From contig CAYRHX010000005.1 in assembly GCA_964424265.1 (NCBI GenBank), positions 7,951 through 71,950 of the forward strand: a DNA stretch of 64,000 bases, written 5' to 3'. This DNA comes from an uncultured Candidatus Saccharibacteria bacterium. Lineage in GTDB: Bacteria; Patescibacteriota; Minisyncoccia; Phycocordibacterales; UBA2100. Positions 4,701 to 59,244 of the stretch are shown here, in pieces. A program made the translations under genes and the position numbers. Every line of letters begins with the position of its first letter. Position 1 is the first letter of the stretch. The notes under the pieces are model-generated. The model made no database searches. It had not been told where the DNA came from and saw nothing but the letters and a program-made list of their open reading frames with translations.

Positions 4701-7568
4701 ATCACATCTTCCGTAGCTGGTTCAGCTTCTCTCGCATATACGTACGACTCTGCAGGGCGGCTCACAAGAGTGACGGGGCCCGCTGGTGCGACAAACTATG
4801 CGTACGATATCAAAGACCGCCTGACTCAGACTACGGATACGTACGGAAATATCATTTCTTACCAATACGACCTCGCAGATAACCTCACGAGGATCACGTA
4901 CCCTGATGGTAAAACAGTTCAAAATCAATTTGACGCGGCAGGCCATCTCACGCAACAAAAAGATTGGACCGGAGGAGTTACGCTTTACACCTACACGGCG
5001 AACGGCGCATTGAGCACAAAAACACTTCCAAATGGAATCTCTGAAGCATACTCCTACGATTCCGCGGGCCGCATCGCAAGCATTGTGTATGGAAATCTCT
5101 CGCAGCCGACTCTGTTCCGTCAAATATTTAGTCGCGATGCGCGAGGTTTTGTATCACGTATTGTCGAAGATGGCTCTACGGTCACAGCACACGCCACAAA
5201 CTACCAATTCGATGCTGCGGGTAAACTCTTAAGCGCGATAGATACCGCGAGCGCTACTTCAACGTACGCCTACGACACAGTGGGTAACATTACCTCCAAT
5301 ACTGCGTCGCGTGTCGATTTCGTACCCACCATAGCCACAACGACAGTGACCGTGTTTAAAGACGCCGCCACGACAACGACGATCATAGCCACCGCAGCGA
5401 CGTCGACAACTGTGTATGCCACGACTACACGTACGTTGGTGCGATCTATTGCACCGACGGTTCCGTACCTTTCCCGATATTTGTTCAACGGCACACTCGC
5501 GTCAAGTGCGAAACGTGCGGATTCGCTTGCACCCTCTCAACTACTGACGGAGAGTACTCGGCTCGCGTCTGGCTCAGGGCGATTTGCGGATGCGAATGGC
5601 ACGTATGTTTTTGACGGCAGCAAGACACAGCTCTCTCTTGCCCTTGTTTATGCTCCCAGCGCTGGTAGCACAACGCTCTCGGCCTGGGTCAAAATGGCAC
5701 CTGGAACGTCAGGCACAATCCTCGGTGCTACCAATAGTTCACCCGCCGGATTTATGCGAATGTACGTCCAGCAGGGAATTTTGCACGGGGATCTAAACTG
5801 GACTTCAGGAAGTAATACGTATGCACTTGTTGCCAGCTCTAGCGCAATAAGAATCGACGACAACGCGTGGCACAAAGTCGATGTCGCGTTTGCCAATTTG
5901 TATCCACCAGCCAATGGCGATATCTTCTCAAATGCCATCTACCTGTATGTTGACGGTGCGCTCGTTTTGACAAAAAAGGGCAACACGGTCAACTACAATC
6001 TTCCTAGTTTTAACTACGGCTGGAAGGTTGGCGCGATGACAAACCCCAACAAGCGCGTAGATAAGTACTTCAAAGGTTCTATCGACGAAGTTGCGATCAC
6101 CAACACCGCGCTGACATCCCCTTCACAAATTCAGGGCCGCTTCGCAGCCGAAGCTACGACATCTCCGATATATATCTGGACTCCTGCCGCTACTACATCA
6201 ACGTCCTACGCGACAACAACTCTCGCCCTGACTCCGACCTCGACGAGTACGACTATTACCAGTATCGCGACGAGCACAGCTACAACTACAGTACCAGCAT
6301 CCACGGTCACCGCAACTGCCCAGAGCTACGCCACAACCACCACTACAGTGGCACCGGTAATTACGAACACGCAGACGTTCCTCGCGACAACTACTGCAAC
6401 TACGACGATCGTGACTCTCACAAGCGTGACCGCTGCAACGACCACAAACACATTTACTATCTCTACCAGCGTGTCCACGACAACTCTTGTTGCAACCCCT
6501 CGCTCGCTCTCAACCTCAAACGCATACTCTGCGGATGACGAATTGCTCCTGTCTGTAACGTCAGGAACTGCGCCGACGGCAACTGTTACTCACACATACG
6601 ATGCGGAGGGAAATTTGAAGTCGACCGCTGGTTCATCTTCCAGGGCGTACTCTTGGACATCTCTCGGACAGCTATCCTCGGTCGCCTCGACCGCTTTCAC
6701 CTACGATGCGTCCGGAAACCGAATCGGGAAGAGCGCGGCGACGACAACCCGATACGTCAACGACGTCCTTGCTCCGAATGCCTTAGTCCTCGTTGAAGCT
6801 AACGCCAGCAATGCTGCAAGCCGCATAAACGTCTGGGGAGGACACGGGCTTATTTCCACAGGGGGAACCGCCACGACAAGCAGGTACTATCCGATAACCG
6901 ATTCCCAAGGGTCTGTCCGATTTCTTTCAGATTCGTCCGGCTCAATCATTCGCGCTTATCAATATGATCCGTATGGCGTCTCCTCAACTTATGCCTCGAG
7001 TGCATCTACTAGCCCGTACCAGTACACCGGTGAAAACCTCGACTCAGAAACCGGCCTTGTCTATCTGAGAGCCCGCTACTACGATCCTGCGACGGGCCGC
7101 TTCATCTCCCGCGACCCCGTGCGCGGCGTCCTCGACAACCCACTAACTCAGAATCCGTATATCTACGCCGGCGACAATCCGATGATGTATAGTGATCCGA
7201 GTGGGGAGCAGGCATTTGCTCTGCCAGGAGCTGGTATTGGATCTTTCTTTGGCCCAGTCGGAACAGCCTGCGGATTCGTCATCGGTGGTATTGCGAGCCT
7301 CGTGATTGTAATATGGGCGGGAAACCAAATTGCTACTTTAAACCTCTCCCAGAGTGGAGCGGGACAAGGAACGCCAAAACCAAGTAATCCGCCATCGGGC
7401 ACAGTACCTATCGATCAAGCAGGATTTCCGCGAGGTACAGCAGATCAGATCAAAAAGATAATCGGGGCTCGTCCGAATGACTGGACAGGTATAGCGCCAA
7501 ATGGCGATATTATTACCGGAACACCAAATGGAGAGGTAATTAATCACGGTCCGATAGAGCCATTCTAA
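1755..7568 (+). CDS. RHS/YD-repeat polymorphic toxin with signal peptide, internal LamG (concanavalin-like) domain, Thr-rich linkers, RHS core end and variable C-terminal toxin tip
   Basis: Numerous YD repeats (YxYDxxGxL type, e.g. YQYNAGHLLKSVTDRAGTRMIDNTYDSSGRVV). LamG-like block around nt 5470-6150. RHS core terminus YQYTGENLDSETGLVYLRARYYDPATGRFISRDPV...NPYIYAGDNPMMYSDPSGE at nt ~7017-7205, followed by a ~120-aa unique tail. Confidence 0.85.
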   Translation: MYSSLFNKRSGRRIAATLLLSLLMQSLAPLLPLTSGSSIAYADTPCGVTTSSGPAITTQYGGVKLDKAATFLANMDDITGAYFDQGRNQIVFVGKTNTTLPEFDKDDLAVAIRAIIFNNAIPAVSIEFKDLNNISAYPTMNVLYYGGIEDTNFGKVLLDADVQLKRYMMGGESGNPVQTAVLGYRSVLARWIENGPDVVRTTGSASRWWISPLTVTLKRDTTSNAFVFDTVAMQVQSAPLMANNDPAWDKAAQDFATQMTQSYDAYAAEMPSFAKAKQLGKITSVIKWLKDNQIATDFQWAKNYQPTFVPTSREVPVMTSGTMRYTSGNYSWDFWIEGGVEYSTPNNYTSDTTGASLQMKVASSAAAPSSTDGVSWTFTSNGQTYNSVAVSADLFRSVGAYAYSETDASLPTTAQVPFSLTRSYSSFATDINNGFGFGWTFMPATLTDALPGIATSCTVPGGYTGSYPYRLAATTPAGRETFTLSCGVGYIPDDPLLFHTKIVPDTAGYLNVVMKDRTFYAFSRFPVNNNFPLYRIGDANAISKITFSYNANYTRVNSMTEAYSGKYITLTYNALDQVSSVVTPSGTLQYGYDANGDLVSATDARGNTTTYQYNAGHLLKSVTDRAGTRMIDNTYDSSGRVVLQTDARNVPRTITYNNTDRSVLWSDPNGRSERTAYDSKARPLQVINAHDATTTFAYDTTSNAPTSIADARGNVSSFAFDAKGNPLSYTTPDGGRTLFTWDSSNNLLQASDQRYIPITGTPKVATYAYDTKGNRTQANVAGISTTNFTYTTQGKVASITDPRGNITRFTYNSSGLPLTIQDPLGRITTYTYDSAGRVTQITDPLGVVTNMTHDANGNRLSVSTPAGAATYTYDANDRLLSTTDPAGALVRRTYSPSGNLTSVVDPLGASTAYGYDSYGNVVQSVDPLSRVTTFSYDSMNRETLYRTPGGKSWTTSYDAVGNPIAQATPTGTQTAVFDSLSRITSSVAGSASLAYTYDSAGRLTRVTGPAGATNYAYDIKDRLTQTTDTYGNIISYQYDLADNLTRITYPDGKTVQNQFDAAGHLTQQKDWTGGVTLYTYTANGALSTKTLPNGISEAYSYDSAGRIASIVYGNLSQPTLFRQIFSRDARGFVSRIVEDGSTVTAHATNYQFDAAGKLLSAIDTASATSTYAYDTVGNITSNTASRVDFVPTIATTTVTVFKDAATTTTIIATAATSTTVYATTTRTLVRSIAPTVPYLSRYLFNGTLASSAKRADSLAPSQLLTESTRLASGSGRFADANGTYVFDGSKTQLSLALVYAPSAGSTTLSAWVKMAPGTSGTILGATNSSPAGFMRMYVQQGILHGDLNWTSGSNTYALVASSSAIRIDDNAWHKVDVAFANLYPPANGDIFSNAIYLYVDGALVLTKKGNTVNYNLPSFNYGWKVGAMTNPNKRVDKYFKGSIDEVAITNTALTSPSQIQGRFAAEATTSPIYIWTPAATTSTSYATTTLALTPTSTSTTITSIATSTATTTVPASTVTATAQSYATTTTTVAPVITNTQTFLATTTATTTIVTLTSVTAATTTNTFTISTSVSTTTLVATPRSLSTSNAYSADDELLLSVTSGTAPTATVTHTYDAEGNLKSTAGSSSRAYSWTSLGQLSSVASTAFTYDASGNRIGKSAATTTRYVNDVLAPNALVLVEANASNAASRINVWGGHGLISTGGTATTSRYYPITDSQGSVRFLSDSSGSIIRAYQYDPYGVSSTYASSASTSPYQYTGENLDSETGLVYLRARYYDPATGRFISRDPVRGVLDNPLTQNPYIYAGDNPMMYSDPSGEQAFALPGAGIGSFFGPVGTACGFVIGGIASLVIVIWAGNQIATLNLSQSGAGQGTPKPSNPPSGTVPIDQAGFPRGTADQIKKIIGARPNDWTGIAPNGDIITGTPNGEVINHGPIEPF
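7008..7203. repeat. direct repeat copy 1 (RHS core 3' end); ~85% identical to 8205..8399, last ~65 nt near-identical
   Basis: The nucleotide string ctaactcagaatccgtatatctacgccggcgacaatccgatgatgtatag occurs in both copies. Confidence 0.75.
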
Positions 7569-8056: not shown

Positions 8057-8815
8057 TTGGATAACATGAAGCGCCGTGCGGTTCTCACACTCCTTATAGC
8101 ATCAATCGCATTCTCGCCACTCACTGCGCTAGCCACAGGCGTAGCTGTGACACCCTTTGGCTGTGGCTATCTGGCCGCAATGGCTGCGCCATCGAGCACC
8201 TCAACCACTCCGTACCTCTACACCGGTGAAAATCTCGACTCTGAAACAGGTCTCGAATACCTCCGCGCTCGCTATTACGATCCGACAACTGGTCGCTTTA
8301 TCTCCCGCGACCCTGTCCGCGGCACCCTCGACAACCCACTAACTCAGAATCCGTATATCTACGCCGGCGACAATCCGATGATGTATAGCGATCCGAGCGG
8401 GAAGGTCTTCTTCGCCCCGCTTCTGATAATTGGCGGATTAGCACTTGCCACATTCCTGACAAATCCCATAATCGAATCGCCCTGTGCTGTAATGAATCCT
8501 ACTCCCGAAGATTTCGCTAAGGCTCAGGCATTGGAAACAGGATTCTTTGTCGCGGGATTTGTAGCACCTGGAGGTGCGCTGTCGAAAGGATTCAACCTTG
8601 TAATAAAACATCCACACGCGATACAACACTTGGTTGAGGGTATTACTTCAGAAATGTTAGATGCAGCTATCAGACGTGACGTCGCCGAAAAAGGAGCGAC
8701 ACTATTGGGTCAGACATTGCAGCGGGAAGTTAAAGTTGCGGGCGAGACTTTCATCTACCGTATACACACATGGGCAGAAGGACAAGTTAACGTGGGTACC
8801 TACTTCCTAAAGTAA
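8057..8815 (+). CDS. orphan RHS core-end + alternative C-terminal toxin cassette with its own start and signal-peptide-like N-terminus
   Basis: YLYTGENLDSETGLEYLRARYYDPTTGRFISRDPVRGTLDNPLTQNPYIYAGDNPMMYSDPSG, followed by a different ~140-aa tail. N-terminus MKRRAVLTLLIASIAFSPLTALA. Confidence 0.65.
   Translation: MDNMKRRAVLTLLIASIAFSPLTALATGVAVTPFGCGYLAAMAAPSSTSTTPYLYTGENLDSETGLEYLRARYYDPTTGRFISRDPVRGTLDNPLTQNPYIYAGDNPMMYSDPSGKVFFAPLLIIGGLALATFLTNPIIESPCAVMNPTPEDFAKAQALETGFFVAGFVAPGGALSKGFNLVIKHPHAIQHLVEGITSEMLDAAIRRDVAEKGATLLGQTLQREVKVAGETFIYRIHTWAEGQVNVGTYFLK
8205..8399. repeat. direct repeat copy 2 (orphan cassette), homologous to 7008..7203
   Basis: Nucleotide-level identity with the RHS core 3' end. 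Confidence 0.75.
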
Positions 8816-27928: not shown

Positions 27929-30900
27929 TTAATCCTGAACGACGAAGTTGACCAATCTCCCGGGCACGACAATCGTCCGCAAGACATTTTTCCCATCCAG
28001 TCGCGCTTTTACTATCTTGCGCGCGGCATCTTCAAGAACAGTCCTATCGGCTCCAATATCCACCTCCACGGTACCGCGTGTTTTACCGTTGATTTGTACG
28101 GCAATGGTAAGGATTTCACTCTTGAGAAGAGTCTCGTCGTACCGCGGCCACTTTTCGAGGTGGATAGATTTTTTGTGATCCACCCTCCAGAGTTCTTCTG
28201 CCATGTGCGGCGCAAATGGCGCAATAAGCCGCAAGAAGATCCCCCACTGCAACCTCCCTATCTTCCCCTCTTTCTCGATGGCATTGAGGAAAATCATTAA
28301 TTGGCTGATGCCGGTATTAAATTTGAGCGCGCCTATGTCTTCGCCAACTTTTTTTATCGTTTTATGCAGTAAGCCGTTGAGCCCAGGAATGTCGTTCTTC
28401 TCGACTGCTGATCGCATTCGCCATACTCGCTCAATGAACCGTCGAACGCCGACGACGCCATCTGGATTCCAGGGATAATTCGAAACCTCATTGTAAGGGC
28501 CGATAAAGGCAAGGTACATGCGCACGGTGTCGGATCCGAGCAATGCGACGACTTCATCTGGATCTATCACATTACCGCGCGATTTGCTCATCTTCTGACC
28601 ATCAGGACCCATAATGAGGGAGCGGTTCATGCGTCGGGTATACGGCTCTTTATCTTTGACAAGGCCTAGGTCATACATCGCCTTCTGCCAAAAGCGACTG
28701 TACAAAACGTGCATTGTCGTATGTTCTGCTCCTCCAGAGTACAAATCGATCGGCATCCATTTTGCGAGCTTCTTAGGATCCGCAAATTGCTTTTTATTAT
28801 TCGGATCCGTATAGCGTTGAAAATACCAAGAAGAATCGACGAAAGTATCAAATGTGTCAGTCTCCCGCTCGGCGCCCCCCTTACACTGCGGACACCTCAC
28901 CTTGACCCACTTCGTCACCTTAGCAAGTGGTGACTTGCCACTCCCTTCGGGCAAATAATCTTTCACCTCGGGGAGTTTGACCGGTAGCTTACGATCCTCG
29001 ACGGCAACGGGCCCGCATGTGGGACAGTGGATGATCGGGATCGGCACACCCCAATATCGCTGACGAGAAACGATCCAATCGCGGAGCTTGTATGTTGTCT
29101 TTTTGCGACCGAATTTTTCTACGATTTTGAGCGCCGCCGCTTCACTCGCTAACCCTGAGAACTCTCCTGAATCGACGAGAATACCCTCCTTGGCATAACA
29201 CGCGTTGCCGATGACTCGACACCACGCAATTCGCATGTCCTCTCGGTTGATGAAATTATCCATCTCATCCTTGGATAGCCATGAGACTTCGTGCTCCGCT
29301 TTTTCCTCAGGTGATATCTCATTTTGCAAACCGTTCTCGAGCTTGAAAAGGAGAGGTGTGTAATACACGGATGTATTTCTTTTCCGCACGTCGCTGAAGT
29401 ATTTGCTGTGGATGGCGCCACCGAGTTGTCTGACAAAAACCGCATTTGAATAACCCGTTTCCTCGGCAATCTCTCGCTTGGCTGCAGACACGGGATCCTC
29501 TCCGTCGTGGATACCACCCGAGACGAACCCCCGTACATCAGTGGGTTTGTAGAGGACGGCCTGATATTTCTCCTCCGACCAATGTTTGACAACGGCGAGG
29601 ATGGACCGTCGAGCAAAGAACTCCTCGTCCGCATGAACCGCATCAAGCCCTCTCGTCTGCACCACAAGAGGTTCGATTACCTCGTTAATCGGCAGGTTGA
29701 ACTTCGTCGCAAACGCGTGATCGCGCTCATCATGGGCAGGCACCGCCATAATCGCACCCGTCCCGTAGTGTCCGAGCACATAATCAGCGACCCACACGGG
29801 GATCTTCTTCCCACTTGCAGGATTGATTGCTTTCACACCATTTAACTCAACACCGGACTTTTCTTTCTGATCGGCTTGCCGCTCGAGATCTGTTTTCCGC
29901 TTCGCTTTTTCAACATACTCCTTGATCTCATCTTTATTTTTCAATATGTTGTGCTTTCCGTCTACCGCACGAATGACCCATGGGTGCTCCGGAGCAAGAA
30001 CGAGGTACGTCGCGCCAAAGAGTGTATCAGCGCGAGTCGTAAATACTCGAACCGTCGGTCGCAGCCACATAAGAACATCGGGCTCGGTGTCACCCGTGAA
30101 ATGGGGTTTATTCGATGTGCTAGTTATGCTTTGTGTACCGAGAAGCTTCGCAAGTGCCTCTGTCTGAGCATCGGAAATAGCGTGATCGCGCGGGTCGTGG
30201 AGAACGGTCACTGAGCGAACGTTTTTTCGGATCGCTTCCCCGTCAAATTTCCATGTCCATTTTTTTTCAAAACTCCTCTTTTTATCTTTAAAATTTGTAT
30301 CGACGAAGCCACCCACAGTCACGAGGCGCGCAAGCGGCTTTGTGAGTCGCTCCGCGACTTTGAGGGCAAGCACTGCCCCAAGGCTGTGTCCCACAAGAAC
30401 AGTTCGTTCGTCGTATTTTGTCGTGCGAAGAGCAAACTCCACTTGCTCTGCTTCTGATGGATTGCCCGAATTGGGTAGCCGAGGCACGAGTACTTCATGA
30501 CCCATGGCTTCGAGTTCTTTTTTTACCCATTGCCACCGAGGTAGATCGGGAGAGCCTTCAAAACCATGGAAAATTACAAATTTGTACTTCTCGCCAGTTT
30601 CAATCAGGAAATCTATCTCCGCGCCCTCCGAGCGGCCGATCCAATTTCGCTGTGACTCCTTGATTTGCTCGGGCCAGTTTAGATCTTTGAGATCATCGAT
30701 CAAACGATCCGCGTAATCGGTGATTTTGATATTCCACTGGAGCATCTTCTTTTGCACCACATCGCTATCACAACGCTCACACTTCCCCGCAACGACCTGC
30801 TCATTAGCAAGCACTGTCTTATCTTTCGGACACCAATTTACGGCTGTGTTTTTGCGATACGCCAATCCTGCTTTGAAAAATTGCAAAAAAAGCCACTGAG

Positions 30901-31306
30901 TCCACTTGTAGTACGCTGGATCACAGGTAACGACCTCTCGCGACCAGTCGAAGGATGTGCCCATCGAACGTATCTGATTTTTCATGTACTCGATATTTTT
31001 GAGAGTCCATGTACGTGGATTGATCTTGTTTTTGATCGCGGCATTTTCTGCAGGAAGACCGAAAGCGTCAAAGCCTATCGGATACAATACATTCTTACCC
31101 TGCATTCGCATCGCTCGCGCCAATATATCGGGTACCGCAAATGCGTACCAATGGCCCACATGGAGATTCCCCGAGGGATATGGAAATTCGACCAGAAGGT
31201 ACGAGTTGTCCCTGCCTTTTACTGAGTCGGGAGTTTTGTAGATTTTGTCTTTTTCCCACTGCTTTTGCCACTTTTTCTCAACCTTTGTATGATCGTAATT
31301 CGACAT
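27929..31306 (-). CDS. leuS: leucyl-tRNA synthetase with two inserted domains (alpha/beta serine hydrolase ~nt 30061-30604; Nudix ~nt 29191-29674)
   Basis: HVGH, NWIGRSEGAEIDF, TTRADT, AVPAHDERD, Zn cluster CPTC...CPQC, KMSKS, and a conserved C-terminal domain. Extra segments carry GHSLG and GGIHDGEDPVSAAKREIAEETGY. Confidence 0.9.
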   Translation of the reverse strand: MSNYDHTKVEKKWQKQWEKDKIYKTPDSVKGRDNSYLLVEFPYPSGNLHVGHWYAFAVPDILARAMRMQGKNVLYPIGFDAFGLPAENAAIKNKINPRTWTLKNIEYMKNQIRSMGTSFDWSREVVTCDPAYYKWTQWLFLQFFKAGLAYRKNTAVNWCPKDKTVLANEQVVAGKCERCDSDVVQKKMLQWNIKITDYADRLIDDLKDLNWPEQIKESQRNWIGRSEGAEIDFLIETGEKYKFVIFHGFEGSPDLPRWQWVKKELEAMGHEVLVPRLPNSGNPSEAEQVEFALRTTKYDERTVLVGHSLGAVLALKVAERLTKPLARLVTVGGFVDTNFKDKKRSFEKKWTWKFDGEAIRKNVRSVTVLHDPRDHAISDAQTEALAKLLGTQSITSTSNKPHFTGDTEPDVLMWLRPTVRVFTTRADTLFGATYLVLAPEHPWVIRAVDGKHNILKNKDEIKEYVEKAKRKTDLERQADQKEKSGVELNGVKAINPASGKKIPVWVADYVLGHYGTGAIMAVPAHDERDHAFATKFNLPINEVIEPLVVQTRGLDAVHADEEFFARRSILAVVKHWSEEKYQAVLYKPTDVRGFVSGGIHDGEDPVSAAKREIAEETGYSNAVFVRQLGGAIHSKYFSDVRKRNTSVYYTPLLFKLENGLQNEISPEEKAEHEVSWLSKDEMDNFINREDMRIAWCRVIGNACYAKEGILVDSGEFSGLASEAAALKIVEKFGRKKTTYKLRDWIVSRQRYWGVPIPIIHCPTCGPVAVEDRKLPVKLPEVKDYLPEGSGKSPLAKVTKWVKVRCPQCKGGAERETDTFDTFVDSSWYFQRYTDPNNKKQFADPKKLAKWMPIDLYSGGAEHTTMHVLYSRFWQKAMYDLGLVKDKEPYTRRMNRSLIMGPDGQKMSKSRGNVIDPDEVVALLGSDTVRMYLAFIGPYNEVSNYPWNPDGVVGVRRFIERVWRMRSAVEKNDIPGLNGLLHKTIKKVGEDIGALKFNTGISQLMIFLNAIEKEGKIGRLQWGIFLRLIAPFAPHMAEELWRVDHKKSIHLEKWPRYDETLLKSEILTIAVQINGKTRGTVEVDIGADRTVLEDAARKIVKARLDGKNVLRTIVVPGRLVNFVVQD

Positions 31307-31382
31307 AGAAAGAGCCTACCATATACTCGCACAACCAAAAACCTCTTCTATCTCGAGTCCGAAGAGAAGACACACCTGTCTA

Positions 31383-31533
31383 GAGCATGTTTGAAAACGC
31401 TTAACTGGAGTGAGAGACGGTATTCCCGAGGAATCCCCGCAGCACGAGGAGTGCGAGGATGGAGGATTTTCCAGCAGGAAAATCCGGTTTCCGAGGGAAT
31501 ACCGTCTCGAAGCGAAGGTTTCCAAATATGCTC
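31383..31533. repeat. 151-bp TIR element copy A (MITE-like / structured RNA), TA-flanked in a CTAG context
   Basis: gagcatgtttgaaaacgc...ggtttccaaatatgctc with internal inverted repeats. Three copies in the window. Confidence 0.75.
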
Positions 31534-32516
31534 TAGATACTTTTTGTTTTCGAGTACGGCGGATACCGCTCAGGATCTATAGTACGCAAGAAGCACACCT
31601 CGCCACTACCGTGACTCCACGTGGAGTCTTCCAGCCCAACACCCTTTTCTCCCGTACCCATAGGACCTGCGGGTACAGGTCCTTGTATCGCGCGAACCAT
31701 CTCCCCGGTATTCAACTGGCCATCGGCATTAAATACTGCACAGAGCTTAAACGTCGTACTTGTTACTTTCTCGTATCGATACGCATCGCCTGATTGCGGA
31801 TCTCGCGGCATCACAAACCCGCTCAATGGATCGTTGAGATCGGCAAGTGTTATGGGCAGCTTTTCCTTCTGTTGCCAATAATTCACAATCTGGTACTGAA
31901 TGCTGACTAGATCGTTGATCCTTTGTTCGTCGAGGCGATGGAGACGCGCCTGCGCTGGAGTCCCCACGATAAAGAACCCCGCGACGACGGTGAAGATAAC
32001 GAGCGCAAGAGTGCCCCCCGCTACGTATTGATTGCGCACGGGAAACTTCTGCCAATAGTTCCAAATGTCAGCGAGGAAGTGCATGAGTCCGGTCCCCGCG
32101 ACGAAGAGCACGACCAATGACTTGAGCAAGAAGCTCGCGGTGATCTCCCATCCATTGAGAAATGTGTACAGCACATAGATAAGATCCCCGACAATCATTG
32201 CGCCCGCGAGAAATACGGTGAGGTAGAGCGCCCACCTGCGCACCCACGTATCAAGTCGTGACGAATCCTTTGCAATATCGCGACGGATAAGAAACATGAG
32301 AGCCAGAAAGGCGGGTGTAAGCACAATGAGCGAGGCCATCTCCCAGCTGATACCGCTCTGATATGGATCTGATGAGTAGTATTGAAGCGGGTCGGGCATT
32401 GCATAGTCGACGTAATCCCATACGAGCGCAATGTAATTGACCACACCTACATACAGTGCTATGACAGCACCGGCCCAGAGAAAGAAATCCTTTGGAGTGA
32501 CTTTTGATTGATTCAT
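31533..32516 (-). CDS. polytopic membrane protein of unknown function
   Basis: Multiple TM helices. Stop codon TAG is formed at the right end of repeat copy A. Confidence 0.5.
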   Translation of the reverse strand: MNQSKVTPKDFFLWAGAVIALYVGVVNYIALVWDYVDYAMPDPLQYYSSDPYQSGISWEMASLIVLTPAFLALMFLIRRDIAKDSSRLDTWVRRWALYLTVFLAGAMIVGDLIYVLYTFLNGWEITASFLLKSLVVLFVAGTGLMHFLADIWNYWQKFPVRNQYVAGGTLALVIFTVVAGFFIVGTPAQARLHRLDEQRINDLVSIQYQIVNYWQQKEKLPITLADLNDPLSGFVMPRDPQSGDAYRYEKVTSTTFKLCAVFNADGQLNTGEMVRAIQGPVPAGPMGTGEKGVGLEDSTWSHGSGEVCFLRTIDPERYPPYSKTKSI

Positions 32517-33667: not shown

Positions 33668-34600
33668 TTATTCTCGTTCCAATATCCGATAACCCTCCAA
33701 AATAGCATCGCACACGAAATCTTCCAGCAAGCTCGGATCGTCTTTCATCTGCGCCTTGTTCAGGTACGTGGTATACAATCGTCGCTTCTCCTGCAGAACA
33801 ACTACGGGCGCAAAATTCTCACGGAGCGCCATTGCATGCATGAGCAATCTCCCGATGCGACCATTGCCGTCACCAAAGGGATGGATCTTCTCGAATCTCC
33901 AGTGAATATGTGCGACGTGAGCGACGACATCCTTGTCCGATTGCTTGATGTCATGAACGAGTTCTTCCATGAGCTCCGGCACTTTCTCATAGTTGGCCGT
34001 TGGTACATGTGCACCCATAATACGAACGCTGTGATTTCGATAGATGCCCGCGTCCGAGCGGATGGCATTCATGAGAATGCTGTGCAATTTCAAGATCAAC
34101 TCTTCATCGATCGGTTTTTTGCTATTAAGATGCTCAAACAGATATTGGAGGGCTGCTTGATGATTTTTTGCTTCCAACTGTTCTACAAGGCTCTTGTTAG
34201 GCAGTGCTACGTTCTCAAAAAGAATGGCGGCCGTGTCACCCTCTGAAAGCGTACTGCCCTCGATTCGATTGGAGTTATACGTCAGCGACAAGTAAAACTG
34301 ATCGCGGATGTCGGGATTATCCAAAATCTCCTTAAGAACAGCTTTATGCTTTCTGCCGGTTGCAGCGACGAGCTGCTTTTTGGTCTCAAGCACGGTCTCT
34401 GGAATTTGCTTCTCGCCCGAATAGTCTTTGTACAACGTCTCGATCTTCTCCTGCATTTTAGGGCGCGGAGTGGCCTTGTCATTAATCCAGCGGTTCAATG
34501 CGGCAAACGTCACACCCAAACGCGCGGCTAATTCCGCTTGCGTGAGGCCCGACAGTTTCTGCAGACTCTCCAATTGCTCCTGTATGGTCATGCGCCCCAC
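33668..34600 (-). CDS. Fic/Doc family protein with N-terminal XRE-type HTH
   Basis: HTH LSGLTQAELAARLGVTFAALNRW. Fic motif HPFGDGNGRIGR. N-terminal inhibitory-type motif SNRIEG. Confidence 0.8.
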   Translation of the reverse strand: MGRMTIQEQLESLQKLSGLTQAELAARLGVTFAALNRWINDKATPRPKMQEKIETLYKDYSGEKQIPETVLETKKQLVAATGRKHKAVLKEILDNPDIRDQFYLSLTYNSNRIEGSTLSEGDTAAILFENVALPNKSLVEQLEAKNHQAALQYLFEHLNSKKPIDEELILKLHSILMNAIRSDAGIYRNHSVRIMGAHVPTANYEKVPELMEELVHDIKQSDKDVVAHVAHIHWRFEKIHPFGDGNGRIGRLLMHAMALRENFAPVVVLQEKRRLYTTYLNKAQMKDDPSLLEDFVCDAILEGYRILERE

Positions 34601-34728
34601 TTTACCAAACTATATATAGTTTGTCAAAAGGACACAATTTTATGTAGTTGCGTTTCCCCGGATGACCCTTGACTGAGGCACCGAAATGTGCTTGTATCTT
34701 TGCTCGGGCTCGACCGAGCCCTTGAACA

Positions 34729-35508
34729 TTGAAAGGATCCGGAAAAATGTTGATCACCGAACTCGCAACTTCGTCGAGGCGCTTCCTCGACGATTTCATG
34801 GCAGCCAATCCGCTGCCGAATGGCGACGAGGGTCTCGCCATTTTCTCCTCCTTCGGGGGGAGATATCAATGGATCGAGGGGGCGCGAGTCCCCTCCAACA
34901 GAGGCGGAGTCTTCCGCGAGGAGGCCCCGGATGGCCTGTATCGGGCCGGCGCCTGCGGGAAGATCGTGGCCCCGCAGGGCCTGCTCGTCGTCTCGGACGA
35001 GCGGAAGAAGTATTTCAAACCCCTCCCCTCAGGATACGCAAAGTACTCGGAGGGGCGAAATCTCATCGAAACCTGGCTCCGGGAGCTGGGGGAGGAGGCT
35101 TTCGTATTTGAACTAAAACCCAAGCACGAACACCGGAGGCGACTCGTCCCTCCAGTGTACACCAGCTCATTGAGCTGGTCTCTCACGTGCGAGGGGCTGG
35201 CAATGAGGGTTGGAGGAATTCGCCTGGAGGGCCAGTTCACTTCGTTGGGGATTGCTTTCAACGAGGTCGAGCGGTGCGTGGAGTACCACGCCCGCTGGGA
35301 TCTCTCGGAACTCGCCCTCGCCGACTCGCTCTCGGTCTTCTACGACGAAGATGAGTGGTACGCTGGCGGCCGGCCGGGGATTCCGGTCGTCGCGCTCGAC
35401 CATTCAGGCAACGTCGCCGGCTGGTTCGCCGGCCAGCAGGGATTCGTCCCTGCGAAGGGGTGGAATCTCCACCCCGCCGTCCGGAAATTCCTCGATCTAC
35501 CGGCCTGA
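34729..35508 (+). CDS. hypothetical protein in a high-GC (~60%+) segment, likely horizontally acquired
   Basis: Abrupt GC rise with Arg/Gly/Ala-rich codon usage. Overlapping multi-frame ORFs typical of high GC. Confidence 0.5.
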   Translation: MKGSGKMLITELATSSRRFLDDFMAANPLPNGDEGLAIFSSFGGRYQWIEGARVPSNRGGVFREEAPDGLYRAGACGKIVAPQGLLVVSDERKKYFKPLPSGYAKYSEGRNLIETWLRELGEEAFVFELKPKHEHRRRLVPPVYTSSLSWSLTCEGLAMRVGGIRLEGQFTSLGIAFNEVERCVEYHARWDLSELALADSLSVFYDEDEWYAGGRPGIPVVALDHSGNVAGWFAGQQGFVPAKGWNLHPAVRKFLDLPA

Positions 35509-35601
35509 GCCGGAGCGATCGAAGAGACCTTCTAAGCGCCGCAAATTTTCGAAAGGAGTTTGCGGCGTGACTATTTTATATTCCCTCGCCAAAGGAGTTT
35601 A

Positions 35602-35752
35602 GAGAATGCTTGAAAAAGCTTAACCGGTGCGAGAGGCGGTGTTCGCGAGTAATCCCCGCAGCACGAGGAGTGCGAGGATTGAGGATTTTCCAGCAGGAAA
35701 ATCCGGGTTCCGAGGGGATACCGTCTCGAAGCGAAGGTTTGGAAACATGCTC
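35602..35752. repeat. 151-bp TIR element copy B (left end degenerate)
   Basis: gagaatgcttgaaaaagc...ggtttggaaacatgctc. Confidence 0.7.
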
Positions 35753-36345
35753 TAGATTCCCAACCTTCCAAGCTCGGACACTTCCTGGAGCCAGCGAGTT
35801 TTGCGATGTTCCGGAATGTTTTCAGACGGGCCAAACCACGTAGAGCGCACGGAGAATCCGGCAAACCATAGTATCCCCCATTTGAGCTGCGCATTTACGT
35901 TACCCGGCAAAAATCGTACGAGCCATGGTACCGTGCCGCTTGTGAAAATCGTCCGCGCGGTTTTCCCGCGAAATAGCCGGTGCCAAAATATGGTCCGGTC
36001 CCCGTGTTTCGTTTTGATATATCGAAAAGCGGAGCCGGGCAACCATGCGCGATCAAAAAGCCCTTTCAAAAGCGCGGGCATCCCCACCCACCACACCGGA
36101 TACACGATCACAAAATGGTCGGCAGCTGTGATGAGTTGTTGGAATCGGACGAGGTCGGGCTCCAGCGCTTGCATCGCCCGATATCCCTTGTGAAGTATAG
36201 GATCAAACTGCATTTCTCCGATATTCATCCTGTCGACAGAGTGACCTGCCGCTTGTGCAGCGGCACAGTAAGCATCCGCAATCTCTCCACAAAATCCAGA
36301 TTTATCAGGGTGCCCCAAAAGCACCAGTATCTTTTTTGCGCCCAT
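35752..36345 (-). CDS. flavodoxin-like fold NAD(P)H-dependent oxidoreductase (NQO/MdaB-like)
   Basis: KILVLLGHPDKSGFCGEIADAY ... FVIVYPVWWVGMPALLKG. Stop TAG formed at repeat copy B. Confidence 0.6.
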   Translation of the reverse strand: MGAKKILVLLGHPDKSGFCGEIADAYCAAAQAAGHSVDRMNIGEMQFDPILHKGYRAMQALEPDLVRFQQLITAADHFVIVYPVWWVGMPALLKGLFDRAWLPGSAFRYIKTKHGDRTIFWHRLFRGKTARTIFTSGTVPWLVRFLPGNVNAQLKWGILWFAGFSVRSTWFGPSENIPEHRKTRWLQEVSELGRLGI

Positions 36346-56877: not shown

Positions 56878-58134
56878 TTATGTCCCCTCCTGCCAACTCG
56901 CGAGATACTTTTCCTGAGCATCGGTGAGGACGTCGACGCTCTGTCCCATTGATGCGAGCTTGAGAGAGGCGATGTGCTTCTCGGTTTCCTCTTGCACGTC
57001 GTACACACCCGGAGCAAGCGGCGTCTTTTGTGTGGCCATCCATGCAGACCCAATCGCTTGTGTCGCAAAGCTCATATCCATGACGCTCGCAGGGTGACCC
57101 TCAGCGGCTGCGAGGTTGACCAACCTTCCTTCTGCCAACACATAAATCCTATTGGCTCCGACTCTGTATTCTTGTACAAAATTCCGCACATCTTTCGGAG
57201 CACCTTGAGCGATCCTCTTCAGATCATCCAAGTTTATCTCCACATCGAAATGCCCGGCGTTGCAGACGATCGCCCCATCTTTCATCACTTTGAAATGTTT
57301 TTCTGTAATGACGTTGATGTTGCCTGTCACGGTGCAAAAGAGATCACCCTCCTTCGCCGCCTCGATCATCGGCATCGCACGGAACCCTTCCATGGCGGCT
57401 TCGAGCGCTTTCACGGGATCGATCTCTGTCACGATGACGTTTGCGCCCATCCCGCGAGCACGCATGGCGAGCCCTTTGCCACACCATCCAAACCCTGCGA
57501 CGACGACCGTCTTTCCGGCTATCAAAATATCGGTCGCACGAATAATGCCGTCGAGGGTGGATTGGCCCGTGCCATACCGATTGTCGAACATGTTTTTCGT
57601 CTTTGCGTCGTTCACAGCGACGATAGGCATCTTCAAAGCGCCCGCCTTGTGCATGGCGCGAAGTCGTATGACTCCCGTGGTCGTCTCTTCCGTCCCGCCG
57701 AGGATATTTTTAAGAAGCTCGGGGTGACCTTGATGAATGGTCGTCACGAGGTCGGCTCCATCATCCATCGTGAGCTGGGGGTTTTGAGCGATGAGCGCCT
57801 CGATGTGCTTGAAAAAAGTCTCCTTGCTCTCCCCCTTTATCGCAAACGTCGGGATGCCATAATCTTGGACCAAGCTTGCGGCTACGTCATCCTGCGTCGA
57901 AAGCGGATTCGACGCCGCAAGAAATACACGTGCACCGCCCGCCTTCAGCGTGATGACGAGGTTGGCAGTTTCTGCGGTCACATGGAGTACCGCTGCCAAA
58001 GTCTTGCCTTTGAATGGTTGATCTTTTTCAAATTGTGCGCGAACACTCCGAAGGACGGGCATGTCTCGCTCCGCCCAATCGACGCGCCGCTTTCCCTCCA
58101 GTGCTAATGCAATGTCCTTAATGTCATATTCCAT
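56878..58134 (-). CDS. ahcY: adenosylhomocysteinase
   Basis: Full-length SAHH homology with NAD-binding [12 protein letters not shown]. Confidence 0.9.
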
Positions 58135-58155
58135 CCGGCACAGTATACAACTCTA

Positions 58156-58306
58156 GAGCATGTTTGAAAACGCTTAACCGGTCTGAGAGATGGTATTTCC
58201 GAGGAATCCCCGCAGTACGATGAGTGCGAGGATTGAGGATTTTTCAGCTGGAAAATCCGGTTTCCGAGGGAATACCGTCTCGAAGCAGAGGTTTCTAAAC
58301 ATGCTC
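58156..58306. repeat. 151-bp TIR element copy C
   Basis: gagcatgtttgaaaacgc...ggtttctaaacatgctc flanked by c-ta...ta-g. Confidence 0.75.
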
Positions 58307-59244
58307 TAGAGCGTCAATGTCTCTCCGTAAGCGGTCTGATAACGTTGGCCCAACTCAGGGATTGTGAACGTGTGATTCTGCGTCCCGTAGTGTTCAACGG
58401 CGTATGCAGCGACGGCGCTCGCCAGTTGCGTAGCTCCCCGCATCGCATATCCGCGCAAGGTCCCCGCGATGAACCCCGCACGATATGCATCTCCCGCGCC
58501 AGTCGGATCAACGACTTGCGCAACAGTGACCGCCTTCACGATCTCTTCCCCCCCCCTTGTCACGATTCGCGAACCCTTCTCTCCCAATGTCACGATGAGC
58601 GCAGCGGCTTTCCCGACGATCGTCGCCTCATCCCATCCCGTCTTTGCAAGGATAAGACTCAGTTCATAATCATTCACAAACAATCCTTTGCAGCCTGTCA
58701 TTCCATCGCGTAGTTGATCAGCGGAAAGTGCGGGGATTTGCTGGCCCGGATCGTAGAAATATTCGATTCCCTGCTCCCGATAGTATTCGGGCAAACGCGC
58801 CATGTCTTCTACACAGCCTGCACCTATGATCGCGCAGCGCGCTTCCTCAGTCGGAGGTAGCGGGATGTAGGGTGTCCCTCCCGAAGCCATTGAAAATGCT
58901 GAGATCTGGTTGTTCGCCCGATCAGTCATGATGAAAGCGGACGATGTGGATCCTTGCGTATCGATCTTGATTGAGATCGGATCGATCTTGAGTGAACGCA
59001 GATGGCCAGCGTATCGCTCAAAATCAGAGCCCGCTGTCGCAATGATGTGTGGCGATTCCCGCAGTAACGCGAGATTGTATCCGATATTCCCAGCCGTCCC
59101 GCCAAAATTTTCGGTGAATCCCTGCACGGCAAAACTCACGTTTATATTGTGAAGCTTGTCTGCGACAAAATGCTCTTTGAAAAGCCCAGGGAAATCCATG
59201 ATGCGATCGTACGCTATGGATCCTGAGACAAGTATGCGAGACAT
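58306..59244 (-). CDS. PfkB-family carbohydrate/nucleoside kinase (adenosine kinase-like)
   Basis: GGTAGNIGYNLALL and DPTGAGDAYRAGF motifs. Adjacent to ahcY. Stop TAG formed at repeat copy C. Confidence 0.8.
   Translation of the reverse strand: MSRILVSGSIAYDRIMDFPGLFKEHFVADKLHNINVSFAVQGFTENFGGTAGNIGYNLALLRESPHIIATAGSDFERYAGHLRSLKIDPISIKIDTQGSTSSAFIMTDRANNQISAFSMASGGTPYIPLPPTEEARCAIIGAGCVEDMARLPEYYREQGIEYFYDPGQQIPALSADQLRDGMTGCKGLFVNDYELSLILAKTGWDEATIVGKAAALIVTLGEKGSRIVTRGGEEIVKAVTVAQVVDPTGAGDAYRAGFIAGTLRGYAMRGATQLASAVAAYAVEHYGTQNHTFTIPELGQRYQTAYGETLTL

What the first reader, a model, noticed from the sequence alone, without database searches (positions are those of the whole stretch)
58156..58306. 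Every copy of the 151-bp element sits in a CTAG context and overlaps or supplies the TAG stop codon of the adjacent gene
In copies A and C the element is flanked as c-TA-[element]-TA-g; copy B has ttTA...TAg. This fits insertion at CTAG with TA duplication, the known target preference of IS630/Tc1-mariner; IS5 also uses CTAG. In all three cases the right-hand junction (…gctc|ta|g) read on the minus strand is the TAG stop of the gene to the right: the membrane protein ending at 31533, the NAD(P)H oxidoreductase ending at 35752, and the PfkB kinase ending at 58306. The element's terminal C therefore forms the first base of the stop codon. Either the insertions targeted the CTAG containing each stop codon, or they replaced original 3' ends and created new stops.
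Basis: partly seen in the sequence, partly recalled or inferred. Interest (0 to 1): 0.65.

Follow-up and report, generated by a model that had tools for sequence, protein, structure and literature searches.

The report
Stop-codon-docking mini-transposon in CPR bacteria
The 151-bp repeat is a small non-coding transposon of a Kaiserbacteria genome that has landed three times exactly in the "TA" of a gene's stop codon and rebuilds a TAG stop with its own first base, so the proteins are unchanged. This is an ordinary kind of element, seen here in a bacterial group where I found no published description of one.

Summary
There are three copies (31383-31533, 35602-35752, 58156-58306; 86-91% identical), each flanked by TA. 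In each, the right-hand C+TA is the minus-strand TAG stop of a real gene.

The element is a MITE-type non-autonomous transposon. It has about 20-bp terminal inverted repeats (GAGCATGTTTnnAAAC), duplicates a TA, and targets Y-TA-R, of which CTAG is the commonest form.

Orthologous loci in related Kaiserbacteria lack the element at all three sites. Their proteins end at the same residue with a native TAG or TAA. So the insertions hit the stop codon's TA, and the element's terminal G regenerates TAG. No 3' end was replaced.

The same inverted repeats, with different hairpin-forming interiors, occur in Kaiserbacteria, Saccharibacteria, Nomurabacteria, Giovannonibacteria and Paceibacterota genomes:
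- 17 of 22 unbiased flanks are TA.
- 17 of 17 outer bases are Y/R.
- 10 to 12 of 23 independent members sit on a stop codon, against 18% expected (p about 0.004).
- Orientation relative to the hit gene is constant within every subfamily.

No autonomous partner was found, so IS630/Tc1-like versus IS5/IS427-like origin is unresolved.

Repeats that supply stop codons are already documented (pneumococcal BOX). I call this a new member of a known kind, of moderate interest.

The parts
58156..58306 (-). Copy C of the 151-bp MITE (GAG...CTC), flanked by the TA duplication at 58154-58155 and 58307-58308. The strand given is that of the gene whose stop it hits.
   Evidence: Predicted RNA fold of the minus strand with flanks: -65.4 kcal/mol, z = -7.4.
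58306..58308 (-). TAG stop of the PfkB kinase gene (58306-59244). TA is the target duplication; G is the complement of the element's last base (58306).
   Evidence: Orthologs end ...YGETLSL* with a native CTC TAG and no element.
58156..58175 (.). Terminal inverted repeat of copy C, gene-distal end (GAGCATGTTTGAAAACGCTT). It pairs with 58287-58306.
   Evidence: helix 1: 23 pairs, 93% of cells paired.
58287..58306 (.). Terminal inverted repeat of copy C, stop-proximal end (...GGTTTCTAAACATGCTC).
31383..31533 (-). Copy A, with TA at 31381-31382 and 31534-31535. The stop of the DUF5671 membrane-protein gene (31533-32516) is at 31533-31535.
   Evidence: Orthologous sites L047 and L049/L050 have ...TTG TAA / ...CTC TAA and no element.
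35602..35752 (-). Copy B, with TA at 35600-35601 and 35753-35754. The stop of the flavodoxin-like NAD(P)H oxidoreductase gene (35752-36345) is at 35752-35754. In gene orientation the distal flank reads TAA.
   Evidence: Orthologous sites L044 and L045 have ...ATG TAG / ...AAA TAG and no element.
58142..58170 (-). Promoter-like site straddling the distal junction of copy C. The -35 TTTTCA lies inside the element's inverted repeat (58165-58170). After 17 nt comes the native -10 TATACT (58142-58147), which ends 8 nt before the AdoHcyase ATG (58134).
   Evidence: consensus match only. The TGTATAC box is conserved in the element-free orthologous spacers.
56878..58134 (-). S-adenosylhomocysteine hydrolase gene, downstream neighbour of copy C.
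27929..31306 (-). Leucyl-tRNA synthetase gene, downstream neighbour of copy A.

Best explanation
The 151-bp element is a miniature inverted-repeat transposable element (MITE): a non-coding, non-autonomous cut-and-paste transposon.

Shown:
- It has about 20-bp terminal inverted repeats, 5'-GAGCATGTTTnnAAAC...GTTTnnAAACATGCTC-3'.
- It inserts into the TA of Y-TA-R sites (CTAG most often) and duplicates the TA.
- TAA and TAG both begin with TA, and the element begins with G on either strand. An insertion into the TA of a stop codon therefore re-creates an in-frame TAG at the same position, and the second TA copy is carried to the far end.
- All three window copies are such insertions. The three proteins keep their ancestral C-termini.

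Inferred:
- In gene-dense CPR genomes, the stop-codon TA is one of the few YTAR sites where an insertion breaks neither a coding sequence nor the short promoter/RBS spacer of the next gene. Such insertions are therefore preferentially retained, perhaps helped by an extended TC-TA-GA target preference.
- The element is co-transcribed with the upstream gene as a long 3' hairpin.
- Its outward-facing end can stand in for a displaced -35 box, as at the AdoHcyase gene.
- It is mobilised in trans by a TA-duplicating DDE transposase, either IS630/Tc1-mariner-like or IS5/IS427-like. That transposase was not found.
For: Dispersed copies. Three copies, 86-91% identical, sit at unrelated loci.

Flanks. 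17 of 22 unbiased flanks are TA against a background of 0.042 (p about 1e-19). 7 of 11 elements have TA on both sides. 17 of 17 outer bases are Y on the left and R on the right (sequences).

Empty sites.
- Copy C: the PfkB-AdoHcyase junction in L029 and L032/L033 reads ...TCGCTC TAG (18-20 nt) ATG. The window minus the element and one TA reads ...ACGCTC TAG AGTTGTATACTGTGCCGG ATG.
- Copy B: L044 and L045 have a native TAG at the same codon.
- Copy A: L047, L049 and L050 have a native TAA at the same codon.
- Ortholog lengths and C-terminal residues match the window proteins.

Family elsewhere. The same inverted repeats with unrelated interiors occur in about 15 CPR loci from genome contigs and 8 independent metagenome loci.

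Stop-codon docking elsewhere. A long ORF ends exactly on the TA|G junction in 10 to 12 of 23 independent members, against an 18% null (p = 0.004). Seven of nine such ORFs have Pfam domains. In L039 two convergent genes that shared one C-TA-A site each receive their own stop.

Hairpin. z = -7.4 for copy C. Subfamilies 1 and 2 share a four-helix architecture with 22 of 54 pairs changed on both sides, 89.7% of cells paired against 33-49% when the partners are slid, and 0 of 500 shuffles reaching the observed value.

Literature.
- IS630 prefers TA within CTAG (Tenzen & Ohtsubo 1991, cited in PMC2170065).
- Bacterial MITEs are under 200 bp, with inverted repeats, TA termini, target duplications and long stem-loop transcripts (PMC2229807).
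- Pneumococcal BOX repeats encode the stop codon of 36 genes without truncating them (PMC3049150).
Against: - No autonomous element or transposase with these inverted repeats was found. There is none in the window at up to 2 mismatches and no match in plasmids. Trans-mobilisation and superfamily are inferred.
- TA, CTAG and TCTAGA are palindromic and merge with the inverted repeat. In any single copy the duplication cannot be separated from the repeat. The TA model rests on the family-wide flanks.
- 5 of 22 flanks are not TA (L035, L040, L041, L042). This fits decay but is unproven.
- The stop-codon enrichment is only about 2.5-fold. It rests on 23 elements and a crude ORF-based gene call.
- The constant orientation and the compensatory changes are not needed by a purely selfish MITE model.
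- No mobility within a population was seen. All four assemblies that contain the copy C locus carry the element.
Confidence: 0.85

Rival explanations
1. The element is a selfish MITE in origin but has been domesticated. In this reading it is retained at gene 3' ends in one orientation because its transcript hairpin or outward promoter does something useful, such as protecting the mRNA 3' end, providing an RNase III processing site between cistrons, or supplying a -35 box for the next gene.
For: - Orientation relative to the gene whose stop is hit is identical within every subfamily: 3 of 3, 3 of 3 and 2 of 2. That is five informative comparisons, p about 0.03.
- The four-helix architecture is kept through 22 double changes between subfamilies.
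- A hybrid -35/-10 site lies at the distal junction of copy C.
- The inverted repeats are conserved across several CPR classes while the interiors differ.
Against: - The sense-strand RNA is not more stable than the antisense. In subfamilies 1 and 2 the antisense strand is more stable by 4-15 kcal/mol, and the sign flips in subfamily 3.
- There is no terminator-like U-run after the hairpin.
- Orthologs do well without the element.
- The orientation sample is small and is confounded with replication direction, since GC skew is uniform across the window.
- Hairpin conservation could instead serve transposition.
Confidence: 0.2
2. The stop-codon association is purely a by-product of an extended sequence preference of the transposase (for example TC-TA-GA, mimicking its own CTC|TA|GAG ends). 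On this reading, selection against harmful insertions plays no part.
For: The base at -2 is T in most left flanks, and several targets read CTC-TA-G. The native copy C site, GCTCTAG, is identical to the element's own end plus TA.
Against: - Outer positions beyond Y/R are variable on the other side (GGCG, AGCC, ATGG, GGTA).
- The null model was already restricted to YTAR sites and still gives 18% against 43-52% observed.
- No copy interrupts a coding sequence, although 767 of 1065 YTAR sites are coding. This shows that a selective filter operates.
Confidence: 0.15
3. The element is not a DDE-type MITE. It is instead a hairpin element moved by a single-strand (Y1/HUH) transposase of the REP/RAYT or IS200/IS605 PATE type, which would explain the orientation bias and the whole-length hairpin.
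For: The element folds as a whole-length hairpin. Orientation is uniform. Solo 22-nt palindromes occur in L009 and L011.
Against: - Such elements make no target duplication and have no true terminal inverted repeats, whereas here 17 of 22 flanks are TA and 7 of 11 elements have TA on both sides.
- The REP-type conserved GTAG head is absent.
- No Y1 transposase was seen near any copy among the neighbouring ORFs I scanned.
Confidence: 0.04
4. The element is a conserved, non-mobile cis-regulatory or terminator structure, or an integron attC-like recombination site, that belongs to the 3' ends of these genes.
For: It is positioned immediately at stop codons. It forms a hairpin with conserved ends and a variable centre, which superficially resembles attC.
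Against: - It is absent from all orthologous sites examined.
- Near-identical copies lie beside unrelated housekeeping genes 4 and 22 kb apart, not in a cassette array.
- The TA is duplicated.
- There is no Rfam match at the gathering threshold or at E below 4.
- No terminator-like site was called.
Confidence: 0.02

Closest known systems
Bacterial TA-flanked MITEs: Correia/NEMIS (Neisseria), ERIC/IRU (enterobacteria), RUP (Streptococcus pneumoniae)
   Same: Size of 100-200 bp, non-coding, terminal inverted repeats, TA at the termini as a target duplication, whole-length stem-loop transcripts, and location in short intergenic spaces co-transcribed with neighbouring genes (PMC2229807). RUP is attributed to IS630-Spn1 because of matching inverted repeats and TA targets.
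   Different: - No sequence similarity to these families.
- The host is Patescibacteria (CPR).
- The termini are GAG/CTC, so TA+G always rebuilds a TAG stop.
- One inverted-repeat sequence is shared by many subfamilies with unrelated interiors across several CPR classes.
- The interior is GC-rich rather than A+T-rich.
- No cognate insertion sequence is known.
IS630 / Tc1-mariner superfamily
   Same: Strict TA duplication. IS630 itself prefers TA inside 5'-CTAG-3' (Tenzen & Ohtsubo 1991, cited in PMC2170065). ISY100 inserts almost only at TA (PMC2170065).
   Different: No IS630-type transposase or full-length insertion sequence with these inverted repeats was found. The target here is the looser YTAR. 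The GAG terminus is, from my own recollection of ISfinder tables, more typical of IS5-family subgroups.
IS5 family, IS427 / ISL2 / IS1031 subgroups (and eukaryotic PIF/Harbinger-Tourist MITEs)
   Same: From my own knowledge of the ISfinder/TnPedia summaries, not checked here: termini GA/GAG, duplications of 2-4 bp, and YTAR/CTAG-type targets. The Tourist inverted repeat (GGnnnTGTTTGG...) resembles GAGCATGTTTGG/GA.
   Different: IS5 proper duplicates all 4 bp of YTAR. That model fails here because the left and right outer bases differ in most copies. No IS5-type transposase was found.
Pneumococcal BOX elements that supply stop codons
   Same: In 36 genes the extreme 3' end overlaps a BOX repeat that encodes the stop codon, with no evidence of truncation relative to orthologs (PMC3049150). 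This is the same outcome as seen here.
   Different: BOX is a modular A-B-C repeat without a TA duplication or a known target. Here the mechanism can be read from the sequence: the TA of the stop is the target and the element's G completes the codon.

Membership tests
Bacterial MITE (non-autonomous inverted-repeat transposon) | Several dispersed, similar, short copies without coding capacity | tested here: met
   Three copies of 151 bp, 86-91% identical, at 31.4, 35.6 and 58.2 kb. Two of the three frames entering the element stop within 12 nt.
Bacterial MITE (non-autonomous inverted-repeat transposon) | Terminal inverted repeats | tested here: met
   GAGCATGTTTnnAAAC / GTTTnnAAACATGCTC. Helix 1 has 23 pairs and 93% of cells paired across 7 elements.
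Bacterial MITE (non-autonomous inverted-repeat transposon) | Target-site duplication | tested here: met
   TA at 17 of 22 unbiased flanks and on both sides in 7 of 11 elements. Background TA frequency 0.042.
Bacterial MITE (non-autonomous inverted-repeat transposon) | Filled versus empty orthologous sites | tested here: met
   Empty sites were found for all three copies in related Kaiserbacteria.
Bacterial MITE (non-autonomous inverted-repeat transposon) | Autonomous partner with the same inverted repeats that encodes the transposase | tested here: inconclusive
   None in the window or the 52 loci held. No plasmid match. No viral-contig match.
IS630/Tc1-mariner-derived element | 2-bp TA duplication, CTAG-type preference | tested here: met
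   Outer bases are C/G in 12 of 17 flanks and Y/R in 17 of 17.
IS630/Tc1-mariner-derived element | Inverted repeats matching a DDE_3/IS630 transposase-bearing insertion sequence | not testable with these tools
   No ISfinder-type library of insertion-sequence ends is available, and no transposase candidate was found.
IS5-family-derived element (IS5 proper) | 4-bp duplication of YTAR | tested here: not met
   The left and right tetranucleotides differ in winB, L037, L039, L043, L012, L020 and L026.
REP/RAYT or IS200/IS605-type palindromic element | No target duplication, no terminal inverted repeats, conserved 5' tetranucleotide guide, Y1 transposase | tested here: not met
   A TA duplication and perfect inverted repeats are present. 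No Y1 transposase was seen among the neighbouring ORFs I scanned.
Integron attC site | Array of cassettes next to an integrase; R''/R' core sites RYYYAAC...GTTRRRY | tested here: not met
   The copies lie beside LeuRS, YchF-region and AdoHcyase housekeeping genes 4-22 kb apart. The right-hand core does not fit GTTRRRY, read directly from the sequence.
Any Rfam RNA family | Covariance-model match at the gathering score | tested here: not met
   No match at gathering. The best E-values on the element were 4.4 and 9.3.

The most novel reading that the evidence does not exclude
Patescibacteria may carry a phylum-wide family of TA-targeting hairpin elements defined by one conserved 16-20-nt terminus. 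On this reading the elements preferentially dock on stop codons in a fixed orientation, regenerate the stop, and have been co-opted as modular 3'-end or intercistronic RNA structures and portable -35 boxes. That would make them a transposon-delivered system of gene-end punctuation in genomes with almost no intergenic DNA.
Probability: 0.15. Interest if true: 0.6.

Novelty: new member of a known kind. Interest (0 to 1): 0.4.

Why it matters
The finding shows at base resolution how a transposon can persist in a streamlined, gene-dense genome without cost. The TA of TAA/TAG is its target, and its own first base completes a new TAG. Proteins are untouched, and even overlapping convergent stops are cleanly separated, as in L039.

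It also adds a widespread MITE family to the Candidate Phyla Radiation. My full-text searches found no description of MITEs in that group.

Practical consequences:
- The repeats break short-read assemblies of CPR genomes. Three Logan contigs end inside copy C.
- They may mislead gene-end and operon annotation.

If the orientation bias and the structural covariation hold up in a full census, the family would be a candidate for domesticated 3'-end RNA structures in CPR bacteria.

Tried and rejected
- Core-pattern scan of genome contigs (AATCCCCGCAGNACGANGAGTGCGAGGAT): 0 hits, so the source species is not a GTDB representative.
- Scan for the terminal-repeat pattern in genome contigs: about 9 of the 24 hits, in non-CPR genomes, are chance. 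I estimate about 17 chance matches for 18 specified bases in 596 Gb.
- Viral contigs, paired-repeat pattern: 0 hits.
- Plasmid BLAST of the terminal 51 nt: no match.
- Rfam at gathering and at E up to 10: nothing meaningful.
- 4-bp CTAG and 6-bp TCTAGA duplication models: rejected, because the outer bases differ between the two sides in most family members.
- Truncation or replacement of 3' ends: rejected on ortholog C-termini.
- Sense-strand RNA stability as a sign of RNA-level function: no consistent advantage.
- Intrinsic-terminator role: no terminator-like site at any copy. The only one called, 35536-35568 on the + strand, is outside copy B and faces the other way.
- Walking the source contig for more copies: 8 kb left of the window contains none. 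The right-edge protein was not on record.
- Search for a transposase among ORFs around copies A and B: only Fic/HTH, an exonuclease and CysRS were found.
- Literature searches for CPR MITEs: nothing relevant. A search for IS427/ISL2 target data returned nothing usable, so the IS5-subgroup comparison rests on my own recollection.

Full report
**What is in the sequence**

The window is from a Candidatus Kaiserbacteria (Patescibacteria/CPR) genome. The best protein relatives are named Kaiserbacteria or Patescibacteria, and GC content is about 51%.

The repeat finder returns one three-copy family at 31379-31537, 35598-35756 and 58152-58310. The copies align end to end and are 86-91% identical. A 26-nt core pattern finds only these three sites even with three mismatches, against none in shuffles.

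Each copy is 151 bp, from GAG to CTC, and each is flanked by TA on both sides:
- Copy A: tgtc-TA-[ ]-TA-gata
- Copy B: agtt-TA-[ ]-TA-gatt
- Copy C: actc-TA-[ ]-TA-gagc

At each right junction, C+TA read on the minus strand is the TAG stop of a real gene:
- a DUF5671 membrane protein, 31533-32516
- a Flavodoxin_2/FMN_red oxidoreductase, 35752-36345
- a PfkB kinase, 58306-59244

One detail needs correcting: the element's terminal C is the complement of the third base of the stop codon, not the first.

**Did the element replace 3' ends or land on the stop?**

For all three genes I compared orthologs and fetched their DNA.

- **PfkB (copy C).** Orthologs are 311-313 aa and end ...YGETLSL*, against ...YGETLTL* in the window. 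The element-free PfkB-AdoHcyase junctions read ...TCGCTC TAG ccgtatatactactcccg ATG (L029) and ...TCGCTC TAG acctgtatactgggatcgaa ATG (L032/L033). The window with the element and one TA removed reads ...ACGCTC TAG AGTTGTATACTGTGCCGG ATG.
- **Oxidoreductase (copy B).** Orthologs are 196-197 aa and end LGRLG[M/K/I]*. They have a native TAG at the same codon in L044 and L045.
- **DUF5671 (copy A).** Orthologs end ...YPPYSK.K.[L/I]*. They have a native TAA at the same codon in L047, L049 and L050.

None of these sites carries the element. These are three independent insertions into the TA of a pre-existing stop codon. The C-termini are ancestral, and the 'replaced the 3' end' alternative is refuted.

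**What kind of element, and what target**

*Family members elsewhere.* The two ends are inverted repeats, GAGCATGTTTnnAAAC...GTTTnnAAACATGCTC.
- A scan of one genome per species with the pattern TCTAGAGCATGTTTNNAAAC gave 24 loci. About 15 are Patescibacteria: Kaiserbacteria, Saccharibacteria, Nomurabacteria, Giovannonibacteria, Paceibacterota and Parcubacteria. I estimate about 17 chance hits for that pattern, which accounts for the non-CPR hits.
- In the CPR loci the same termini enclose 106-197-nt (106-191 nt where TA-flanked) hairpin-forming interiors unrelated in sequence to the window element.
- A metagenome scan with both repeats but no flank specified gave 9 loci, 8 of them independent.

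*Flanks.* In the flank-unbiased set (those 8 plus the 3 window copies):
- 17 of 22 flanks are TA, against a background frequency of 0.042
- 7 of 11 elements have TA on both sides
- all 17 outer bases are Y on the left or R on the right

*Which duplication model fits.* A 4-bp CTAG duplication fails because the left and right tetranucleotides differ in most copies, for example CTAG/CTAA in L037 and L039, and TTAG/CTAG in L043 and copy B. The minimal model that fits everything is this: termini GAG...CTC, target Y-TA-R, TA duplicated. CTAG is the commonest target, not an obligatory one.

*What this matches.* This is the signature of TA-duplicating DDE transposons. IS630 is reported to prefer TA within CTAG (Tenzen & Ohtsubo 1991, cited in PMC2170065). 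TA termini, inverted repeats, target duplication and long stem-loop transcripts define the bacterial MITE class of Correia, ERIC and RUP (PMC2229807).

**Why the stop codon**

TAA and TAG both start with TA, and YTAR contains TAR on both strands. Because the element starts with G on either strand, TA+G regenerates TAG wherever the TA of a stop is hit.

L039 shows this cleanly. Two convergent genes of 421 and 418 codons, both with Pfam domains, shared a single C-TA-A site. After the insertion each has its own TAG.

I then tested whether stop codons are over-used.
- After removing the elements from 20 CPR loci, 54 of 298 YTAR sites that do not interrupt a coding sequence (18%) are stop-codon TAs. 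A further 767 YTAR sites are coding.
- A called gene ends exactly on the junction in 10 of 23 independent family members (binomial p = 0.004).
- Inspection by open-frame length adds L036 and the second gene of L039.
- Seven of nine such ORFs carry Pfam domains.
- The window's three of three has p about 0.006.
- No family member interrupts a gene.

The enrichment is real but moderate, about 2.5-fold. I attribute it mainly to retention: the stop-codon TA is the site farthest from the next gene's signals. A weak extended target preference (TC-TA-GA) may add to it. These two causes are not separated here.

**Structure and orientation**

Copy C folds into a long hairpin (-65.4 kcal/mol, z = -7.4).

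BLAST groups the elements into subfamilies. Subfamily 1 (window A, B, C) and subfamily 2 (L012, L035, L036, L039) align over their full length. They share four helices: the terminal-repeat stem, a second 17-bp stem and two apical hairpins. The pair counts are:
- 22 of 54 pairs changed on both sides
- 89.7% of cells paired, against 33-49% when the partners are slid
- 0 of 500 shuffles reaching the observed value

This is essentially one deep comparison between two lineages, so it shows that the fold is kept but not why.

Within every subfamily, the elements that sit on a stop have the same orientation relative to that gene: 3 of 3, 3 of 3 and 2 of 2. That is five informative comparisons, p about 0.03.

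The sense RNA is not more stable than the antisense, and no terminator-like site follows any copy.

At copy C the promoter scan finds a hybrid site: -35 TTTTCA inside the distal repeat, a 17-nt spacer, and the native -10 TATACT 8 nt before the AdoHcyase ATG. The TGTATAC box is conserved in the empty orthologous spacers. The insertion therefore displaced whatever lay upstream of the -10 box and put the element's own end there. This is a consensus match, not evidence of function.

**What is not known**

- IS630/Tc1-like origin fits the TA duplication and the CTAG preference.
- IS5-family IS427/ISL2-like origin fits the GAG termini, 2-4-bp duplications and YTAR targets. Those traits are from my own recollection of ISfinder summaries and were not verified here.
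- Both remain open. IS5 proper, with its 4-bp duplication, is excluded.

**Comparison with what is known, and verdict**

Mechanistically and structurally this is a bacterial MITE of the Correia/ERIC/RUP kind. Small repeats that encode the stop codon of the upstream gene without truncating it are already documented: 36 genes in S. pneumoniae for BOX elements (PMC3049150). Full-text searches found no paper describing MITEs in CPR/Patescibacteria, and Rfam has no family for the element.

I rate it a new member of a known kind.

Three features go beyond routine:
- the base-level logic of stop regeneration
- the CPR-wide conservation of one terminal-repeat sequence over many unrelated interiors
- the suggestive orientation bias and structural covariation

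Interest: 0.4.

Noticed in passing
L009:7671-7692 and L011:1257-1278 (same Kaiserbacteria MAG, JACQKA01): A 22-nt perfect palindrome, GAGCATGTTTCGAAACATGCTC, flanked by TA. It consists of two 11-nt inverted-repeat halves with no interior. It occurs at two unrelated loci, both exactly on stop codons (a HIT-domain gene and a 236-aa ORF). It could be a minimal mobile unit or a reproducible deletion product of full-length elements.
   Followed up: partly
L030:10940-11023 (identical in L031): In the same PfkB-AdoHcyase spacer of another Kaiserbacteria genome, an unrelated hairpin of about 62 nt (CCCGTGAGAT...ATCTCACGGGG) is inserted at the conserved (G)TATAC box, with TATAC repeated on both sides. 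It looks like a second, different small insertion in the same tiny spacer.
   Followed up: no
window 27929-31306 (-): The leucyl-tRNA synthetase is 1125 aa and carries alpha/beta-hydrolase and NUDIX domains inside the synthetase. The same architecture is present in L047 (1123 aa), and NUDIX alone in L049/L050.
   Followed up: no
window 33668-35600: A Fic/DOC + HTH gene (33668-34600) and ORFs without Pfam hits lie between the flavodoxin-like gene and YchF. In L047 these two genes are 45 nt apart, and in L044 a VWA-domain gene sits there instead. This is a variable islet, and copy B sits at its edge.
   Followed up: partly
window 6996-7208 and 8192-8404: A second direct repeat (213 nt, 84% identical) lies at the C-terminal end of the 1937-aa RHS-repeat protein gene (1755-7568) and inside the next-but-one ORF. 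It resembles an RHS tip and orphan-module arrangement.
   Followed up: no
window 58142-58170 (-): A hybrid promoter-like site. The -35 TTTTCA is supplied by the element's distal inverted repeat and the native -10 TATACT ends 8 nt before the AdoHcyase start. This would imply a leaderless or near-leaderless transcript.
   Followed up: partly
L001, L003, L004 (3' ends): Three independent Logan assemblies of the same organism end 24-28 nt inside copy C. The repeat breaks short-read assemblies, which suggests that more copies exist in the genome than the three seen here.
   Followed up: no
window, whole: CTAG occurs 59 times against about 249 expected from base composition. Five of the 59 are element junctions. 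All YTAR tetranucleotides are depleted.
   Followed up: partly
L018:1646-1836 and L018:4293-4398 (Nomurabacteria CP060229): Two members of the family with different lengths (191 and about 106 nt) lie 2.5 kb apart in a closed CPR chromosome. They share a 51-nt segment in inverted orientation. This genome would be a good substrate for a full census.
   Followed up: no
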